Shown here piece after piece: positions 24,644 through 62,461 of a DNA stretch of 64,000 nucleotides. Within the stretch, counting starts at the first letter, position 1; each line of letters begins with the position of its first letter. The stretch is from the human T2T-CHM13v2.0 reference genome, Homo sapiens: assembly GCF_009914755.1 (NCBI RefSeq), contig NC_060931.1; one strand, given 5' to 3'. The translations under genes and the position numbers were made by a program. The notes below the pieces were generated by a model. It did no database searches. It was not told the origin of the DNA and was given only the letters and a program-made list of their open reading frames with translations.

Positions 24644-27667
<3,024 letters not shown>

Positions 27668-27682
<15 letters not shown>

Positions 27683-29794: not shown

Positions 29795-32700
29795 ATGACA
29801 GGATCAAATTCACACATAACAATATTAACCTTAAATGTAAATGAGCTAAATGCCCCAATTAAAAGACACAGACTGGAAAATTGGATAAAGAGTCAAGACC
29901 CATCAGTGTGCTGTATGCAGGAGACCCATCTCACGTGCAGACACACATAGGCTCAAAATAAAGGGATGGAGGAAGATATACCAAGCAAACAGGAAAAAAA
30001 AAAAAAAAAAGCAGGTGTTGCAATCCTAGTCTCTGATAAAACAGACTTTAAACCAACAAAGATCAAAAGAGACAAAGAAGGCCATTACATAACGATAAAG
30101 GGATCAGTTCAACAAGAAGAGCTAACTATCCTAAATATATATGCACCCAATACAGGAGCACCCAGATTCATAAAAAAAGTCCTTAGAGACCTACAAAGAG
30201 ACTTGGACTCCTACACAATAATAATGGGAGACTTTAACACCCCACTATCAATATTAGACAGATCAACGAGACAGAAAGTTAACAAGGATATTCATGACTT
30301 GAACTCACCTCTGCACCAAGCAGACCTAATAGACTTCTATAGAACTCTCCATGCAAATCAACAGAATATACATTCTTCTCAGCACCACATCGCACTTATT
30401 CCAAAACTGACCACATAATTGAAAGTAAAGCACTCCTCAGCAAATGTAAAAGAACAGAAATTACAACAAACTGTCTCTCAGACCACAGTGCAATCAAATT
30501 AGAACTCAGGATTAAGAAACTCACTCAAAACTGCACAACTACATGGAAACTGAACAACCTGCTCCTGAATGACTACTGGGTAAATAACGAAATGAAGCAA
30601 GAAATAAAGATGTTCTTTGAAACCAATGAGAACAAAGACACAATATACCAGAATCTCTGGGACACATTTAAAGCAGTGTGTAGAAGGAAATATATAACAC
30701 TAAATGCCCACAAGAGAAAGCAGGAAAGATCTAAAATCGACACCCTAACATCACAATCAAAAGAACTAGAGAAGCAAGAGCAAACACATTCAAAAGCTAG
30801 CAGAAGGCAAGAAATAACTAAGATTAGAGCACAACTGAAGAAGATACAGACACAAAAAACCCTTCAAAAAAATCAATGAATCCAGGAACTGGTTTTTTGA
30901 AAAGATCAACAAAATTGATAGACCACTAGCAAGACTAATAAAGAAGAAAATAGAGAAGAACCAAATAGATGCAATAAAAAATGATAAAGGGGATACCACC
31001 ACTGATCCCACAGAAATACAAACTACCATCAGAGAATACTATAAACACCTTTATGCAAATACAATAGAAAATCTAGAAGAAATTGATAAATTCCTCAACA
31101 CATACACCCTCCCAAGACTAAACCAGGAAGAAGTTGAATCCCTGAATAGACCAATATGAGGCTCTGAAATTGAGGCAATAATTAATAGCCTACCAACCAA
31201 AAAAAGTGCAGGACCAGAGGGATTCACAGCTAAATTCTAAGAGAGGTACAAAGAGGAGCTGGTACCATTCCTTCTGAAACTATTCCAATCAACAGAAAAA
31301 GAGGGGCTCCTCCCTAACTCATTTTATGAGGCCAGCATCACCCTGACACCAGGCAGACATACAATAAAAAAAGAAAATTTCAGGCCAACATTCCTGATGA
31401 ATATCGATGCAAAAATACTCAATAAGACACTGGCAAACTGAATCCAACAGCACATCAAAAAGCTTATCCACCACAATCAAATTAGCTTCACCACTGGGAT
31501 GCAAGACTGGTTCAACATACACAAATCAATAAACATAATCCAGCATATGAACAGAACCAAAGACAAAAACCACATGATTATCTCAATAGATGCAGAAAAG
31601 CCCTTTGACAAAATTCAACATCCATTCATGCTAAAAAAACTGTGAATAAATTAGGTATTGATGGGATGTATCTCAAAATCATTAGAGCTATTTATGACAA
31701 ACCCACAGCCAATATCACACTGAATGGGCAAAAACTGGAAGCATTCTCTTTGAAAACTGGCACAAGACAGGGATGCCCTCTCTCACCACTCCTATTCAAC
31801 ATAGTGTCGGAAGTTCTGGCCAGGGCAATCAGGCAAAAGAAAGAAATAAAGGGTATTCAGTTAGGAAAAGAGGAAGTCAAATTGCCCCTGTTTGCAGATG
31901 ACATGACTGTATATTTAGAAAACCCCATCATCTGAGCCCAAAATCTCCTTAAGCTGATAAGCAACTTTAGCAAAGTCTCAGGATACAAAATCAATGGCAA
32001 AAATCACAAGCATTCCTATACACCAATAAGAGACAAACAGAGAGCCAAATCATGAGTGAACTCCCATTCCCAATTGCTTCAAAGAGAATAAAATACCTAG
32101 GAATCCAACTTACAAGGGACATGATGGACCTCTTCAAGGAGAACTACAAATCACTGCTCAAGGAAATAAAAGAGGACACAAAAAAATGGAAGAACATTCC
32201 ATGCTCATGGATAGGAAGAATCAATATCATGAAAATGGCCATACTGCCCAAAGTAATTTATAGATTCAATGCAATCCCCATCATGCTACCAATGACTTTC
32301 TTCACAGAATTGGAAAAAACTACTTTAAAGTTCGTATGGAACCAAAAAAGAGCCTGCATTGCCAAGACAATCCTAAGCAAAAAGAACAAAGCTGGGGGCA
32401 TCATGCTACCTGACTTCAAACTATACTATATGACTACAGTAACCAAAACAGCAGGGTACTGGTACCAAAACAGACATGTAGACCAATGGAACAGAACAGA
32501 GCCCTCAGAAATAATACCACACATCTACAACCATCTGATCTTTGACAAACCTGAGAAAAACAAGAAATGCAGAAAGGATTCCCTATTTAATAAATGGTGC
32601 TGGGAAAACTGGCTAGCCATATGTAGAAAGCTGAAACTGGATCCCTTCCTTACACCTTATACAAAAATCAATTCAAGATGGATTAAAGACTTAAATGTTA

Positions 32701-33612
32701 GACCTAAACCCATAAAAACCCTAGAAGAAAACCTACCATTCAGGACATAGGCATGGGCAAGGACTTCATGACTAAAACACCAAAAGCAATGGCAACAAAA
32801 GCCAAAATTGACAAATGGGATGTAATTAAACTAAAGAGCTTCTGCACAGCAAAAGAAACCACCATCAGAGTGAACAGGCAACCTACAGAATGGGAGAAAT
32901 TTTTTGCAACCTACTCATCTGACAAAGGGCTAATATCCAGAATCCACAAAGAACTCACACAAATTTACAAGAAAAAAACAAACAACCCCATCAAAAAGTG
33001 GGCAAAGGATATGAACAGACACTTCTCAAAAGAAGACATTTATGCAGCCAACAAACACATGGAAAAATGCCCATCATCACTGGCCATCAAAGAAATGCAA
33101 ATCAAAACCACAATGAGATACCACCTGATGCCAGTTAGAATGGCAATCATTAAAAAGTCAGGAAAAAACAGGTGCTGAAGAGGATGTGGAGAAATAGGAA
33201 CACTTTCACACTGTTGGTGGGACTATAAACTAATTTAACCATTGTGGAAGACAGTGTTGTGATTCCTCAAGGATCTAGAACTAGAAATACCATTTGACCC
33301 AGCAATCTCATTACCGGGTATATACCCAAAGGATTATAAACCATCCTGCTATAAAGACACATGCACAAGTATGTTTATTGCACACTATTCACAATAGCAA
33401 AGACTTGGAACCAACCCAAATGTCCATCAATAATAGACTGGATTAAGAAAATGTGGCACATATACACCATGGAATACTATGCAGCCATAAAAAAGGATGA
33501 GTTCATGTCCTTTGTAGGGACATGGATGAAACTGGAAACCATCATTCTGAGCAAATTATCACAAGGACAGAAAACCAAACACCGCATGTTCTCACTCTTA
33601 GGTGGAAATTGA
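29795..33612 (+). pseudogene. Inner L1 ORF2p (EN/RT/Cys-rich), disrupted
   Basis: MGDFNTPLS EN motif, LFADDM RT motif, multiple stops and frameshifts. Confidence 0.9.
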
Positions 33613-33830
33613 ACAATGAGAACACCTGGACACAGGGTGGGGAACATCACACACTGGGGCCTGTCATGGGGTGGGGGAAGTGGGAAGGGATAGCATTAGG
33701 AGAAATACCTAATGTAAATGACGAGTTAATGGGTGCAGTACACCAACATGACATGTGTATACATATGTAACAAACCTGCACGTTGTTGACACGTACCCTA
33801 GAACTTCAAGTATAATAATAATAAAAAAAA

Positions 33831-34002
33831 GAAAATGTGGAAATGTTGGAGAAGATTCAGAAAATACTATGAAAAATAAAAGTACTGTAAAAATAAAAGC
33901 TGGGAGCAAGATTAAAGGGATTTATTTTTGCTAAGGTTTAAAAATACTTAAGAGTGACTGATGCACTAATTGGCGATCACATCAAAGGTTTTCACATAGA
34001 GC
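33831..34002 (+). other. L1-mediated 3' transduced non-L1 sequence (172 bp)
   Basis: Non-L1 DNA between the L1 A-tail (ends 33830) and a second poly(A) (34003-34012), inside the TSD pair. Confidence 0.88.
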
Positions 34003-34025
34003 AAAAAAAAAAAAACTGAAGAGTT

Positions 34026-34793
34026 TCTGCACAGCAAAAGAAACTGTCATCAGAGTGAACAGGCAACCTACAGAATGGGAGAAAATTTTTGCAATCTATC
34101 CATCTGACAAAGGCATAATATCCAGAATCTACAAGGAACCTAAATTTACAAGAAAAAAATTAGACAACCTCATCAAAAAGTGGCCAAAGGATATGAACAG
34201 ACACTTCTCAAAAGAAGACATTTATGTGGTCTACAAACATATGAAAAACAGCTCATCATCACTGGTCATTTGAAAAATGCAAATCAAAACTACTATGAGA
34301 TACCATCTCACACCAGTTAGAATGGTGATCATTAAAAACTCAGGAAACAACAGATGCTGGAGAGGATGTGGAGAAATAGGAATGCTTTTACAGTGTTGGT
34401 GGGAGTGTAAATTAGTTCAACCATTGTGAAAGACATTGTGGCGATTCCTCAAGGATCTAGAACCAGAAATACCATTTGTCCCAGCAATCTCATTACTGGG
34501 TATATACCCAAAGGATTATAAATCATTCTACTATAAAGACACATGCACATGTATGCTTACTCCAGCCCTATTCACAATATCAAAGACTTCGAACCAACCC
34601 AAATGCCCATGAATGATAGACTGGATAAAGAAAATGTGGCACATATACACCATGGAATACTATGCAGCCATAAAAAAGGATGAATTCATGTTCTTTGGAG
34701 GGACATGGACGAAGCTGGAAACCATCATTCTCAGCAAACTAACACAGGAACAGAAAACCAAACACTGCATGTTCTCACTCAAGTGGGAGTTGA
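34026..34793 (+). pseudogene. Outer L1 ORF2p 3' part
   Basis: Resumes at TCTGCACAGCAAAAG exactly where it was interrupted. Confidence 0.9.
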
Positions 34794-35090
34794 ACAATGA
34801 GAACACATGAACACAGGGAGGGGAACATCACACACTGGGGCCTCCCAGTGGATGAGGGTCTGGGGGAGGGATAGCATTAGGAAAAATACCTAATGTAGAT
34901 GACGGGTTGATGGGTGCAGCAAACCACCATGGCACGTGTATACCTATGTAACAAACCTGTACGTTCTGCACATCTCAGAACTTAAAGTATAATTTAAAAA
35001 AATAAAAATAAAACCCTGTAGTAGCAAAAGTAACTGGATATGAACATGATCATTAATTTTTCCCAATTACTTGAGTTATTTTTTAAGGAA

Positions 35091-38666: not shown

Positions 38667-38925
<259 letters not shown>

Positions 38926-57346: not shown

Positions 57347-58070
57347 AATGGCCATTTCAAATATCCTACATGGATCAAAACAATTTACTATACTAACCAA
57401 CAATGCTGGTACTTGGAAGGCTATAAAAAGTCACAATTGAAATATTCTTCCTGTCACCATTTATTAAATTGTATTTAGTGTTGATAGATCGCCATTGTTA
57501 CCATTTAAAATATTAAGCAACTTTCAAACTATCTTTAAAGAACTATATATACACATAGTCTGAGCCAAACACAAAGTTAAATAAACATTAGCAACAAAGC
57601 TAAGCTGCATATAAACAAAAATTGAAATGTGATATAAAATATTAATTTAATGTTCCAAAGAACACAGGTTTGAGAGGATACATGACAGAAACTTCTATAG
57701 GCATTGCTTGTCTTGAAGGAGGAGAATTCAGAAATGAAAACTTTCTCATGGGTGTCAGCAACACTTTTTCTTTTCCTCTGTATTCTCATGATCATTTATA
57801 AAACATGTAGTTTAAAAAAAACATGTAGCTTAGTTTTACCTTATGAAATATGATTATTAAGGCCAAATCTTTAAGCTCTATGTATTTTTCCCATATATGT
57901 GTAGTTCAACCAAACCTTGGTTATCAGTTGGGGCCATGAAGACCCAAAGTAACTGTATGCCAGAAAGGTCCCCATTAACCACTTAAATACTGCAGTCCCT
58001 TAGGATCTTGAAGTCCAAAGTTGCAGCAAGGGTCAGATCTGGGAATTGAGCAAGGCTAAATGTTTACTTA

Positions 58071-59333
<1,263 letters not shown>

Positions 59334-59829
59334 AATTGAGATAACTCAACAATCTGGTTTTTACACTTTATAAATTATTTTCTATTTACTTTATCTGGGT
59401 AGTTGCCTATTACCTTCACTGCCACTGAAACCTGACCTTTCATTCCTAGGGGAAAAAAAGGTATTTTATGATATATAATATGGTCATATAACTATACTAT
59501 AAGCATTCATTATTTATTATTATTCTGAGTCAGGAATTGTGGGAGACCCAAACATTTATAAAATACAGATCTCCCTACAGCTCACAATATGGAGGAGGTT
59601 AGGAGACAAATTTCTGGGAGTGAAGGCTGTAATTCAGAGCTGTACAAGAGAAAATCAAAGAAATCCTTAGATAATCTGTCCAGAAGTTTCAACCAATAAT
59701 GAAATTCAGGACTTATGAACTGAACTTTTCTGGGACCTATATCTTAGATCACTTATACCATTTAAATACTTTTTTCTTGTAACAATGACATTTTTTGACT
59801 AGATATGTCTTAAGGCTCCTGGCAAAAGA

Positions 59830-60610
59830 TACAGGATATTTCTGATAAGGTTTGGTTTCAGAACTGAACTCTCCTCCGTGGAGACATTTAGGAAAATACA
59901 GCCAGAGAATTAAAACTGCAGTGATCAAGGCTTTTATCACACACCCATTTGCTAGGCCCATTTCCCCCATAAAATCAAGTTTCGTTGGAACGCAGAGCCC
60001 CGCTCATTCAAACCTCCACGGTGAAGTTGAGAAGTTGCCACACATTGCTGGGCACTCCTCACTGGACACCTCTGCGGGGCACTCTACAGACCTCAGGGCC
60101 GCGATCACCAACCTGCAGCGTTTCCAGTTCCCTTCCTTAATGCCCACCCCGCTCCTTCCTGGGTCGCCACGGAGGAGTCCAGAATCTGTCCTCTGTCGAG
60201 GGTTCCACGGACTCCGATACCTGCTCCAGCACCCCCAGCACTTACCCCATCTTCACCTGAGCCTTCTCAACTACGCGGCCCACCTTCTTCCCTCGTTCTG
60301 ACCCCACTACAACAAGGCCCATGGCGGTGCCACCTCACGAGGAGAAGGACGATCACCTTGAGACCCATCGGCCTCTGAGGCCACGGACCACGCTGCCCCA
60401 TGCTCCAGACGGCCGCTGGCTCCTCCTCACACTCACTCACACTTCAACCCCTGGGAAGACTGGCCTGCGGACCTACCGGCCGTGTCTCAGTAGGACAGAA
60501 AAAGTCCAGACAGCAGGAGCGCGACCCTCACACCCTCACAGCTCCGCCGCGTTCACCACGTGGGCAAAGGGGCCGACGGGAAGACGCCCAGGGCACATGC
60601 GCAGTGAGGT
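59830..60610 (-). promoter_or_regulatory. GAGE/PAGE/XAGE-like promoter + exon 1 + intron 1 module (intact copy)
   Basis: Minus strand CTGCGCATGTGCCCTGGGCGTCTTC..GCCCACGTGGTGAACGCGGCGGAGCTGTGAGGGTGTGAGGGTCGCG..TCTGGACTTTTTCTGTCCTACTGAGACACGGCCG|GTAGGTCCGCAGGCCAGTC..TTGAAGTGTGAGTGAG, as recalled for GAGE-family 5' ends. Confidence 0.75.
60477..60596 (-). ncRNA. Putative non-coding first exon of a leftward (probably lncRNA) transcript
   Basis: Donor CCG|GTAGGT at 60476; second strong donor GGG|GTAAGT at 60245; NRF1-like site 60593-60605; E-box 60557-60562. Confidence 0.55.
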
Positions 60611-60679
60611 CGGTGCCTGCTCTGTGGGCTGTGGCGCCCCTCCTCGACCCTCCTCGCTCTACCCCATCCAGCGCCGCGC

Positions 60680-61160
60680 AGTCCTCTGCCCTCTCCCAGG
60701 TTCCCACTGAAGACTTTGGAATGTGTCTTCTGTGGGCGGTTTCATATGCCTCCGGGACTCAAATACCACAAATGGTTTCCCCCTTCAAAACTCCATGTTC
60801 ACTCGGCCCTCCTCCTTTCTATGGCCCTCCTTCCTACCCTGTCTGGGACTCCCACGACAGCAAGGCCATGGCTGCGTCGCCGCCTGTTAGGAGAAGGACA
60901 GGGACCTCAAGGCCCTTCCCCCTAGGAGGCCATAGACTGCGCCGCGGGCTTCTCCTCACGCTCTCTCACACTTCAACTCTGGGAGGACTTATCTGCGGAC
61001 CTAGTGGCTGACTCCTAGTCAGCAACACAGAAAGAAGTCACGATGTCTCCTTGCACAGCTCTGCGGGGACAGAAGGCAGACAGCAAGGCACATGGACAAC
61101 AAGGGACTTGGGCAGCAAGGGGCATGCACACTGAGTCAGGCACATGCAAGGCCAGCCGCG
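60680..61160 (-). repeat. Degenerate tandem copy of the GAGE-like module
   Basis: Collinear with ~60145-60610 at an offset of ~530-550; donor GT changed to CT at 61004. Confidence 0.8.
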
Positions 61161-62461
61161 GTTTTCCCTCTCTCCTCTCACCCCGGACTCGCATCCCTAA
61201 GGTGTTTGTAGCAGAAAGAAAGGGACTAAGAGGCTTTGTTCTCTCTCTTACCCTACCATTCTCATGCATCCAGAAACACTGGGAACAGACAGTCCCCATG
61301 TCACCATTAGTGGAGGATGTGTCTGAGAAAGACCTTTTGTGACAGAAATAAATTATTTTAATATCTTTAAAAAAAGAAAAAAGAAAACCTGAAAAAAGAA
61401 TATGACAAACTAAAATTAGATGAAAGGAAAGACTGTCATTTTTCCTCATGTTTTATAAAATAGGTATTGCTTTGATGTGTTTTGTGAAATTATACTTTGA
61501 AATATCATGCTATTTTCCTTAACTTTGTTTACCAAAAGAAGGGTAAAAATGATAATTGATAAAGATCTTTCTCTTCAATTTAAAAATCCTGAAATTTGTT
61601 ATTCTAATAAATCTCTCCATCAAAATGAATATACATTACAATTTACAACTCTGAGAGCCTATTTTGGAAAGTAGGTTTGTCTGATACTATGATATTAAGA
61701 CATTTGAAAGGGTTTTTTTTCCCTTTAATAACACATTATTTGGCATTATTTTCATTCTTTTTATGGGAAATTTGACCCAAATTTGCCTTCTTATTTGTAT
61801 AAAATTCTTTTGATACCACACTTGAAAGAAAGAAGATAATGACAGAGTAAAGTAGACTCCCTTTTCCACAATAAACAAGCTACAGACTGACTCTTTTGAT
61901 TATGTTTTATGATGAGCAAATCTTGATTATACAAAGGTTTTATCTAAATTACAGAATTCCAAAGCCATGACAAAAATTAAAAATAATTATTGTTTGCAAA
62001 CGGACTCAAATAAGAAAATGTACAATATTATTCTTTAAATAAGAGCATAAAATTCTTTGAAGAAAAAAAATAAAAGGAAAGTAGCTAATTGGCCAGGATT
62101 TGGTAATAATGTTTCTTAAGACAACAAAGAGGAGATAATGATCCTCACACACAGAGCTCTAGGGATGCTTAAATCTTACAACTATTGAGAATGACATTTC
62201 TGCTTCACCTTGGACAGAGTTCTTAAAACAAAACATTTCCTTTTCATTTGTTAAGATGTGATACTGGTTATGTGGCCTTTAAATTGGCTTCATTAAAATC
62301 CGTTTGCCTTAAAGGTGATTTGGTATCAGAAAATCTATTCATATACCACACCATATTAATAAGCTAGAAGAGAATAAAATAGATCTATATCAATAGATGC
62401 CAAATAAGAGCTCTTGGAAAACTTCAACAGTCACAAGAGAAGAATGTCCACTTTTACAATT

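What the first reader, a model, noticed from the sequence alone, without database searches (positions are those of the whole stretch)
59830..60610. Orphan GAGE/PAGE/XAGE-type germline promoter cassette without its coding exons
Seen: the only CpG island in the window has, on the minus strand, an NRF1-like site (ACTGCGCATGTGC), an E-box (CACGTG), a ~120-nt exon ending in CCG|GTAGGT and a second strong donor GGG|GTAAGT at 60245. Recalled knowledge: this matches the non-coding exon 1 of X-linked GAGE/PAGE/XAGE cancer-testis genes (GCCCACGTG..GAGCTGTGAGG..GGACTTTTTC..CTACTGAGA|GTAGGT) and continues collinearly through their intron 1 to about GAAACCAAACCTTATCAGAAAT. I see no GAGE-type coding exon (MSWRGRST-like) downstream. 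Intron sequence is kept and there is no poly(A) or TSD, which argues for DNA-level duplication rather than retroposition. Inference: a portable, methylation-controlled germline promoter-plus-splice-donor cassette that recruits local cryptic exons to create a testis/tumour lncRNA. It may belong to a dispersed family not catalogued as a transposon.
Basis: partly seen in the sequence, partly recalled or inferred. Interest (0 to 1): 0.88.

Follow-up and report, generated by a model that had tools for sequence, protein, structure and literature searches.

The report
XAGE promoter copy driving lncRNA MGC4859
A 1.56-kb copy of the promoter, first exon and start of the first intron of an X-linked XAGE3-type cancer-testis gene sits alone on chromosome 7, probably carried there by a reverse-transcribed antisense RNA, and now supplies the annotated start of the long non-coding RNA MGC4859.

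Summary
It holds the window's only real CpG island, the conserved TGCGCATG element, the CACGTG E-box, exon 1 and its GTAGGT donor, but no GAGE-type coding exon. RefSeq already uses it: exon 1 of lncRNA MGC4859 (60477-60539) splices from that donor to chr7 exons 218 kb and 327 kb away. Two parts of the interpretation fail. First, it is not a dispersed family: chr7 is the only promoter-plus-intron copy found outside chrX, and the block is not repeat-masked. Second, there is a poly(A), on the other strand. On the plus strand the homology ends 16-18 nt after an ancestral AATAAA and runs into a 23-of-30 A-run found only in chr7. The best reading is an L1-type retrocopy of an unspliced, non-coding RNA antisense to an XAGE3/4 progenitor, inserted roughly 30-40 Myr ago. 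No target-site duplication was detectable. The chr7 copy kept more ancestral CpGs (55 of 67) than its chrX relatives (43 of 67 each). This is a new variant of promoter-carrying retrocopies, of moderate interest.

The parts
59805..61367 (+). Block copied from an XAGE3/XAGE-4 progenitor. The sense of the inferred RNA intermediate is the + strand. Read on the - strand it is about 750 bp of upstream region, exon 1 and about 670 bp of intron 1.
   Evidence: blastn 59805-61364/61369 against XAGE3 (89.3%) and XAGE-4 (89.6%); three-way alignment; junctions compared with 11 chrX paralogues; not repeat-masked.
61347..61352 (+). AATAAA polyadenylation signal of the inferred source RNA
   Evidence: The only AATAAA on either strand in 59700-61500. 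Present as AATAAA at the same place in 5 of the 11 chrX paralogues, including XAGE3, XAGE-4 and XAGE2; the other 6 carry variants or are offset in the display.
61368..61398 (+). Degenerate poly(A) tail, found only in chr7
   Evidence: 23 A in the 30 nt 61369-61398. Runs of this class: 5 on the + strand and 1 on the - strand in 64 kb. All 11 chrX paralogues continue here with shared non-A sequence.
59961..60840 (.). CpG island
   Evidence: 880 bp, GC 0.60, o/e 0.64, 48 CpG.
60593..60605 (-). ACTGCGCATGTGC element (NRF1-like half-site by recalled consensus; binding not tested)
   Evidence: Position. The TGCGCATG core is shared by GAGE, PAGE1 and most XAGE copies.
60557..60562 (-). CACGTG E-box
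   Evidence: Position. Shared by XAGE3, XAGE2, PAGE1 and the GAGE unit; reads CATGTG in XAGE-4.
60477..60539 (-). MGC4859 exon 1 (RefSeq NR_147499.1), homologous to the non-coding exon 1 of XAGE/GAGE/PAGE1
   Evidence: Annotation; family alignment. The XAGE3 RefSeq gene start maps to about 60619 and the 5' end of the chr4 spliced pseudogene maps to 60591.
60471..60476 (-). GTAGGT 5' splice site used by MGC4859
   Evidence: Exon boundary in RefSeq. GTAGGT is present at this column in 13 of the 17 aligned family members.
60240..60245 (-). Second donor-like GTAAGT inside the copied intron 1; no annotated use
   Evidence: Position. XAGE3 reads GCGAGT and XAGE-4 GTGAGT here. No RefSeq exon ends here.
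60823..61039 (-). Upstream member of an ancient ~530-bp tandem duplication of the exon-1 region (partner 60277-60506)
   Evidence: Self-blast 77% and 70% identity; direct repeats with 528-529 nt spacing. Collinear in XAGE3 and XAGE-4, so it predates the copy.

Best explanation
Window 59805-61367 is a single autosomal copy of the 5' end (upstream region, CpG-island core promoter, non-coding exon 1 with its splice donor, and the first ~670 bp of intron 1) of the progenitor of XAGE3 and XAGE-4 on chrX. It most likely arrived through an RNA. An unspliced, non-coding transcript ran antisense across that promoter and ended at an AATAAA about 750 bp upstream of the XAGE start. It was polyadenylated, reverse-transcribed (L1-type, probably 5'-truncated) and inserted into unique AT-rich chr7p21.3 sequence roughly 30-40 Myr ago. 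Because a CpG-island promoter works independently of the orientation of the RNA that carried it, the insert still fires on the minus strand. Its exon 1 donor has no XAGE exon 2 to join, so it splices to chr7 acceptors 218 kb and 327 kb downstream, giving lncRNA MGC4859. Shown: homology, breakpoints, polyadenylation signal plus A-tail, lack of coding exons, single-copy status, the annotated transcript. Inferred: the RNA route, the age, promoter autonomy, germline hypomethylation.
For: Identity and source: 1.5 kb at 89-90% to XAGE3 and XAGE-4. ML tree (chr7,(XAGE3,XAGE-4)) with 100/100 and 100/99 support and clock-like branches of 0.045 against 0.018+0.033 or 0.035. RNA route: homology to all 11 chrX paralogues examined ends within about 3 nt of the same point, 16-18 nt after an AATAAA shared with XAGE3, XAGE-4 and XAGE2, and only chr7 continues with an A-run of 23 A in 30. 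Only 6 such runs occur in 128 kb of strand sequence, so about 6.6e-4 are expected at a breakpoint in the right configuration. A polyadenylation hexamer falls in a given 30 nt about 9% of the time. The minus strand has no AATAAA, and only two 6-nt A runs follow its 3' end. Both flanks are single-copy, so this is an insertion into unique DNA. The source RNA was non-coding here: the + strand ORF is not conserved and has no Pfam match. Use as a promoter: the RefSeq BestRefSeq transcript starts at 60539 and uses the inherited donor; exons 2 and 3 have AG acceptors. All conserved core motifs are intact in chr7. CpG island retained: 55 of 67 ancestral CpGs against 43 of 67 in each chrX relative (Fisher p=0.03, or 0.086 under a conservative count).
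Against: No target-site duplication: the best flank alignment is a 6-mer scoring at the null mean. At about 5% divergence a 10-15 nt duplication should still be visible, so a canonical L1 insertion needs a target-site deletion or a very short duplication. No antisense gene is annotated at XAGE3 or XAGE-4, so the source RNA is hypothetical. The flanks are AT-rich, so an A-run there is less improbable than in average DNA. There is no sign of purifying selection on the chr7 promoter core: 7 private substitutions against 6.2 expected. The CpG difference is only marginally significant. Expression evidence is one RefSeq model plus gene-list mentions in somatic datasets. Exon 3 lies antisense to the HSPA8P8 pseudogene, so unstranded counts may be contaminated. 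No other primate genome could be examined.
Confidence: 0.7

Rival explanations
1. DNA-level duplication: a 1.56-kb piece of chrX DNA was pasted into chr7 during double-strand-break repair or as a small segmental duplication, and the A-run is pre-existing target sequence.
For: Promoter and intron sequence are retained and collinear with genomic DNA. No target-site duplication is detectable. The flanks are AT-rich. No annotated antisense RNA exists at the source loci.
Against: The breakpoint falls 16-18 nt after an ancestral AATAAA and abuts one of only 6 comparable A-runs in 128 kb of strand sequence. A random breakpoint would have to hit both by chance. Intron retention is equally expected for an antisense RNA.
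Confidence: 0.2
2. Sense-strand retrocopy: an XAGE pre-mRNA started about 750 bp upstream, kept intron 1, was polyadenylated inside it, and was retroposed. This is the Okamura-Nakai type of promoter carry-over.
For: This is the published route for promoter-bearing retrocopies (PMC2386082 abstract; PMC4772013 passages). Two short A6 runs follow the minus-strand 3' end.
Against: No AATAAA on the minus strand in 59700-61500, and none of that hexamer or ATTAAA visible in the last 60 nt of the block. The sequence after the minus-strand end is not a poly(A). The plus-strand end has the full signal-plus-tail signature.
Confidence: 0.03
3. Inert relic: whatever the route, the copy is a decaying neutral fragment, and the MGC4859 first exon reflects rare or aberrant transcription without function.
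For: chr7-private substitutions are evenly spread with no constraint on the core. MGC4859 appears only in gene lists: 6 papers found, passages read in 3, none on function.
Against: The CpG island and every conserved core motif survive after about 9% divergence, and CpG retention exceeds that of the parent genes. A curated RefSeq transcript uses the start and the donor. This rival concerns function, not origin, and is compatible with the best explanation for origin.
Confidence: 0.3

Closest known systems
5' regions of XAGE3 and the XAGE-4 pseudogene (GAGE/PAGE/XAGE cancer-testis family, chrX)
   Same: 89-90% identity over 1.56 kb. Same TGCGCATG element, E-box, exon 1, GTAGGT donor, start of intron 1 and internal ~530-bp tandem duplication.
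   Different: It is autosomal and single, not in a chrX repeat array. It has no coding exons. It carries a plus-strand A-tail. It retains more CpGs. The donor-equivalent of the upstream duplicate is GT in XAGE3 and XAGE-4 but CT in chr7.
Retrocopies that inherit the parental promoter (Okamura & Nakai 2008, PMC2386082, abstract read; Carelli et al. 2016, PMC4772013, passages read: about 3% of expressed retrocopies)
   Same: A parental core promoter is transcribed, reverse-transcribed and becomes active at a new locus.
   Different: In those cases the promoter rides in the sense orientation on a spliced mRNA together with the coding exons. Here the inferred RNA is antisense, unspliced and non-coding. 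Only promoter, exon 1 and part of an intron moved, and the product is a lncRNA built from local exons.
LOC100286945, 'X antigen family member 3 pseudogene', chr4:3311598-3312106 (RefSeq)
   Same: It derives from the same gene lineage and lies on an autosome.
   Different: It is a conventional spliced retrocopy. Its match to the chr7 core covers only exon 1 and stops exactly at the donor, then GAGE-domain coding sequence follows (Pfam hits at chr4:3311689-3312004). It has no promoter or intron sequence.
5'-truncated L1-mediated retrocopies of non-genic RNA, including orphan 3' transductions (recalled knowledge, no call)
   Same: A unique-sequence insert ending in a polyadenylation signal plus A-tail, without L1 sequence.
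   Different: No target-site duplication was found. No source L1 was looked for or identified. The payload happens to be a complete promoter in reverse orientation.

Membership tests
GAGE/PAGE/XAGE gene family (as a gene or pseudogene) | Nucleotide homology to a family member's 5' region, with the conserved core promoter and exon-1 motifs | tested here: met
   89-90% to XAGE3 and XAGE-4; motifs shared with the GAGE unit, PAGE1 and XAGE copies.
GAGE/PAGE/XAGE gene family (as a gene or pseudogene) | GAGE-domain (PF05831) coding exons | tested here: not met
   128 of 128 six-frame candidates were scored and none lies in chr7:10.85-10.914 Mb. No XAGE3 gene-body match anywhere in the window.
GAGE/PAGE/XAGE gene family (as a gene or pseudogene) | Location in chrX repeat arrays | tested here: not met
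   The window is on chr7. Both flanks are single-copy.
L1-mediated retrocopy | Homology ends shortly after a polyadenylation signal and is followed by a poly(A) tail | tested here: met
   On the plus strand, AATAAA at 61347-61352 and an A-run at 61369-61398 that is absent from all 11 chrX paralogues.
L1-mediated retrocopy | Target-site duplication flanking the insert | tested here: inconclusive
   The best flank alignment is a 6-mer scoring 12 against a null mean of 12.1.
L1-mediated retrocopy | Introns removed relative to the source (processed) | tested here: not met
   The block is collinear with genomic XAGE3 and XAGE-4, including intron 1. This is expected if the RNA was antisense, so it is not decisive.
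Promoter-inheriting retrocopy (Okamura & Nakai type) | The parental core promoter is present in the copy and used as the start site | tested here: met
   Core homology. The RefSeq start at 60539 lies inside the inherited exon 1.
Promoter-inheriting retrocopy (Okamura & Nakai type) | The promoter is carried in sense orientation on the parental mRNA together with its exons | tested here: not met
   The tail is on the strand opposite to the promoter. No coding exons.
   All 53 non-self matches are on chrX (40 of 53 candidates scored). The core search found one chr4 hit, which is a spliced pseudogene (40 of 56 scored). The block is not masked in the chr7 table. Dfam could not be queried.
CpG-island promoter | At least 200 bp, GC at least 0.5 and CpG o/e at least 0.6, overlapping an annotated start site | tested here: met
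   59961-60840, GC 0.60, o/e 0.64. The MGC4859 start is at 60539.
Methylation-controlled cancer-testis promoter | Methylated and silent in soma; demethylated and active in germ cells, placenta or tumours | not testable with these tools
   No methylation or CAGE data were available. The only indirect evidence is higher CpG retention than in XAGE3 and XAGE-4.

The most novel reading that the evidence does not exclude
A non-genic RNA running antisense through a cancer-testis promoter was retroposed and planted a complete, orientation-independent CpG-island promoter plus splice donor on an autosome. There it left the chrX context, kept its CpGs better than its parents, and founded a 330-kb lncRNA gene from local exons. 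If so, antisense or read-through RNAs are an overlooked vehicle for spreading promoters ('promoter seeding'). This locus would also be a 30-40-Myr natural experiment on whether CT-X promoter silencing is intrinsic to the sequence or imposed by chromosomal context.
Probability: 0.3. Interest if true: 0.65.

Novelty: new variant of a known kind. Interest (0 to 1): 0.45.

Why it matters
It gives a concrete origin for an annotated but unexplained human lncRNA (MGC4859): a borrowed X-linked cancer-testis promoter and splice donor. It extends the known idea that retroposition can move promoters to a case where only the promoter moved, in reverse orientation and on a non-coding RNA. It also provides a paired comparison: the same promoter sequence on chrX and on an autosome. 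That comparison could test whether germline-restricted, methylation-dependent control of CT-X genes is encoded in the promoter or depends on chromosomal context. The practical weight is modest: it is one locus, its function is unknown, and there is no sign of selective constraint.

Tried and rejected
Target-site duplication: local alignment of the 35-nt left flank against the 56-nt right flank gave only a 6-mer (score 12; positional null 12.1±2.8; shuffle null 11.1±2.1). Weak candidates seen by eye were dropped as not significant.

Empty-site paralogue: both flanks are single-copy, so the pre-insertion site cannot be recovered from this genome.

Hidden antisense gene: the 203-aa plus-strand ORF (60400-61011) has no Pfam match and is broken in XAGE3 and XAGE-4 by indels of 1, 4 and 10 nt. 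No plus-strand gene is annotated at either chrX locus.

Constraint on the chr7 promoter: private substitutions are uniform along the block, so there is no signal.

Second autosomal intron-containing GAGE copy on chr12: the two Pfam hits lie inside PIWIL1 and are probably compositional. I did not pursue this further.

The shared interspersed repeat (window 58057-59342 and copies near XAGE3 and XAGE-4) was considered as part of a larger duplication. I rejected this because the window holds at least three other copies at similar identity.

Literature: MGC4859 (6 papers; passages read in 3, listing only for the other 3), LOC79150 (1, irrelevant), XAGE+retrocopy (1; its Table 1 lists XAGE as X-only), GAGE+PAGE+XAGE+NRF1 (1, irrelevant by title), XAGE3+promoter+methylation (25; one passage read). 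None describes the origin of this promoter. Supplementary tables of PMC2386082 and PMC4772013, which may list promoter-inheriting retrocopies, were not opened.

One search was wasted: I aligned opposite strands. It was redone correctly.

Full report
**What is there.**
- On the minus strand, window 59500-61300 shows a GC-rich stretch (GC 0.52-0.69 between about 59900 and 61300) set in DNA of 25-40% GC.
- A Gardiner-Garden scan finds one clear CpG island, 59961-60840 (880 bp, GC 0.60, o/e 0.64, 48 CpG). The only other candidate is a borderline 230-bp stretch at 38691-38920.

**What it is related to.**
- A whole-genome search with 59700-61300 gave 54 matches (40 of 53 candidates scored). All but the self-match are on chrX.
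- The best matches are the 5' ends of XAGE3 (90%) and the XAGE-4 transcribed pseudogene (89%). Next come XAGE2, XAGE5, XAGE1A/B and unnamed XAGE-like pseudogenes (71-79%), then PAGE1/2/3 and the GAGE array (68-83% over shorter spans).
- blastn of the whole window against 18 kb around XAGE3 and XAGE-4 shows one specific block, 59805-61364/61369. Everything else is interspersed repeats.
- The block is not repeat-masked in the chr7 table.
- A correctly oriented three-way alignment is collinear with only small indels. XAGE3 and XAGE-4 stay alignable with each other beyond both ends, so the ends are specific to chr7.
The TGCGCATG element, CACGTG, GGAGCTGTGAGG, CTACTGAGA and the GTAGGT donor are shared by chr7, most XAGE copies, PAGE1 and the GAGE unit.

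**What is missing.**
- A six-frame Pfam GAGE (PF05831) scan of the genome scored 128 of 128 candidates. None lies in this window or its neighbourhood.
- No XAGE3 gene-body DNA is present either.
- So this is promoter, exon 1 and about 670 bp of intron 1, and nothing more.

**How it is used.**
- RefSeq NR_147499.1 (MGC4859) has exons at chr7:10910477-10910539 (window 60477-60539), 10692142-10692237 and 10580118-10583076.
- Exon 1 is the inherited XAGE exon 1 and ends at the inherited GTAGGT donor.
- Exons 2 and 3 have AG acceptors. Exon 2 is not masked. Exon 3 lies antisense to the HSPA8P8 processed pseudogene.
- The RefSeq start of XAGE3 maps to about window 60619. The 5' end of a spliced XAGE3 pseudogene on chr4 maps to 60591. 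Starts are therefore dispersed over about 80 nt, as is usual for CpG-island promoters.

**Is it a dispersed family?**
- No. A second search with the 221-nt core (40 of 56 candidates scored) found one further autosomal hit, chr4:3311566-3311680.
- That hit covers only exon 1, stops exactly at the donor, and adjoins GAGE-domain coding sequence.
- RefSeq calls it 'X antigen family member 3 pseudogene'. It is an ordinary spliced retrocopy.
- Matches in closed regions are not shown by the tool, so absence elsewhere is not absolute.

**How it got there.**
- On the plus strand the block ends ...AATAAA (61347-61352), then 16-18 nt, then an A-run with 23 A in 30 nt (61369-61398).
- Against 11 chrX paralogues, AATAAA is present at that position in 5 (XAGE3, XAGE-4, XAGE2, XAGE1A and one unnamed copy). 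The other 6 carry variants or are offset in the display.
- All 11 continue past the breakpoint with shared non-A sequence. Only chr7 has the A-run.
- At the other end, all 10 paralogues that gave a hit share sequence up to the same point, and chr7 diverges at 59804/59805.
- A-runs of this class occur 6 times in 128 kb of strand sequence. The expected number at a breakpoint in the right configuration is about 6.6e-4.
- The minus strand has no AATAAA and no tail.
- This is the 3' signature of an RNA-mediated copy whose RNA ran antisense to XAGE.
- Retention of promoter and intron is then expected, because an antisense RNA is not spliced at the sense introns.
- The RNA was non-coding over this stretch.
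- The weak point is that no target-site duplication is detectable. Both flanks are single-copy, so no empty site can be recovered from this genome.
- No antisense gene is annotated at the source loci.
- I put the RNA route at about 0.75 and DNA-level insertion at about 0.2.

**When.**
- K2P distances are 0.093 (chr7-XAGE3), 0.096 (chr7-XAGE-4) and 0.066 (XAGE3-XAGE-4). Excluding CpG sites they are 0.061, 0.075 and 0.048.
- The ML tree is (chr7,(XAGE3,XAGE-4)) with 100/100 and 100/99 support. The chr7 branch is 0.045.
- In the CpG-dense core the XAGE3+XAGE-4 stem is nearly zero. In the upstream half XAGE3 and XAGE-4 share many differences and have few private ones. This looks like later gene conversion on chrX. 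The copy therefore left at about the time XAGE3 and XAGE-4 separated.
- With recalled primate neutral rates of about 1.1e-9 per site per year, this gives roughly 30-40 Myr. That figure is an inference, not a measurement.

**State of the copy.**
- Of 67 CpGs inferred ancestral to the trio, chr7 keeps 55, and XAGE3 and XAGE-4 keep 43 each. Most losses are to TG or CA.
- Fisher p is 0.03, or 0.086 under a conservative count.
- This is suggestive of less germline methylation on chr7 than on chrX, and no more than suggestive.
- chr7-private substitutions are evenly spread (7 in the core against 6.2 expected), so there is no evidence of purifying selection.

**Comparison with what is known.**
- Promoter carry-over by retroposition is established. 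In more than half of 29 gene pairs the core promoter had been retroposed (PMC2386082, abstract). About 3% of expressed retrocopies inherited a parental promoter (PMC4772013, passages).
- Those cases are sense-oriented mRNAs with coding exons. This one is antisense, unspliced and promoter-only, and its product is a lncRNA.
- A census of CT genes lists XAGE as X-only with no intronless copies (PMC1890293, Table 1 passage).
- None of the passages I read on MGC4859 addresses its origin. For three further MGC4859 papers I saw only the search listing.
- Supplements were not opened.

**Verdict.**
It is probably wrong about how it moved, and wrong about it being a dispersed family.
- It is a new variant of a known kind, of moderate interest.

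Noticed in passing
G000 chr4:3311566-3312106 (inside RGS12): RefSeq 'X antigen family member 3 pseudogene' LOC100286945 is a conventional spliced retrocopy. Its exon-1 part ends exactly at the donor-equivalent, so the same gene lineage left both a spliced copy and the promoter-only chr7 copy.
   Followed up: partly
chrX 52152247-52153778 (XAGE3) and 54950395-54951941 (XAGE-4); equivalent to window 60743-61213: In the upstream half, XAGE3 and XAGE-4 have almost no private differences (1, 1, 1 per 157-nt bin) but many shared differences from chr7 (3, 10, 3). In the CpG-dense core the three copies form a near star. This looks like gene conversion between the two chrX copies.
   Followed up: partly
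chrX 54947869-54951941 (L002): The RefSeq span of the XAGE-4 transcribed pseudogene begins about 200 bp downstream of its own promoter and exon-1 homologue. Its E-box reads CATGTG instead of CACGTG.
   Followed up: no
window 60823-61039 vs 60277-60506: There is an ancient ~530-bp tandem duplication of the exon-1 region inside the cassette (77% and 70% identity), shared with the chrX paralogues. The donor-equivalent of the upstream copy is GT in XAGE3 and XAGE-4 but CT in chr7.
   Followed up: partly
G000 chr12:130380597-130380728 and 130383353-130383484: Two Pfam GAGE-domain hits (E = 0.0086 and 6e-5) lie inside PIWIL1. This is probably compositional similarity rather than a GAGE copy.
   Followed up: no
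window 58057-59342; also 26853-27680, 32011-33840, 34013-35013: These are copies of one interspersed, LTR-like repeat, one of them with an inverted segment at 58085-58382. The same family lies near XAGE3 and XAGE-4 at 82-90% identity and is unrelated to the cassette.
   Followed up: no
chr7:10580118-10583076 (MGC4859 exon 3, outside the window; L036): The 2.96-kb last exon of MGC4859 lies antisense to the HSPA8P8 processed pseudogene. Unstranded expression measurements of MGC4859 may therefore pick up HSPA8-derived reads.
   Followed up: no
window 60400-61011 (+): A 203-aa ATG-started ORF lies on the plus strand of the CpG island. It has no Pfam match, and the frame is broken in XAGE3 and XAGE-4 by indels of 1, 4 and 10 nt, so it is a by-product of GC-rich sequence.
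   Followed up: yes
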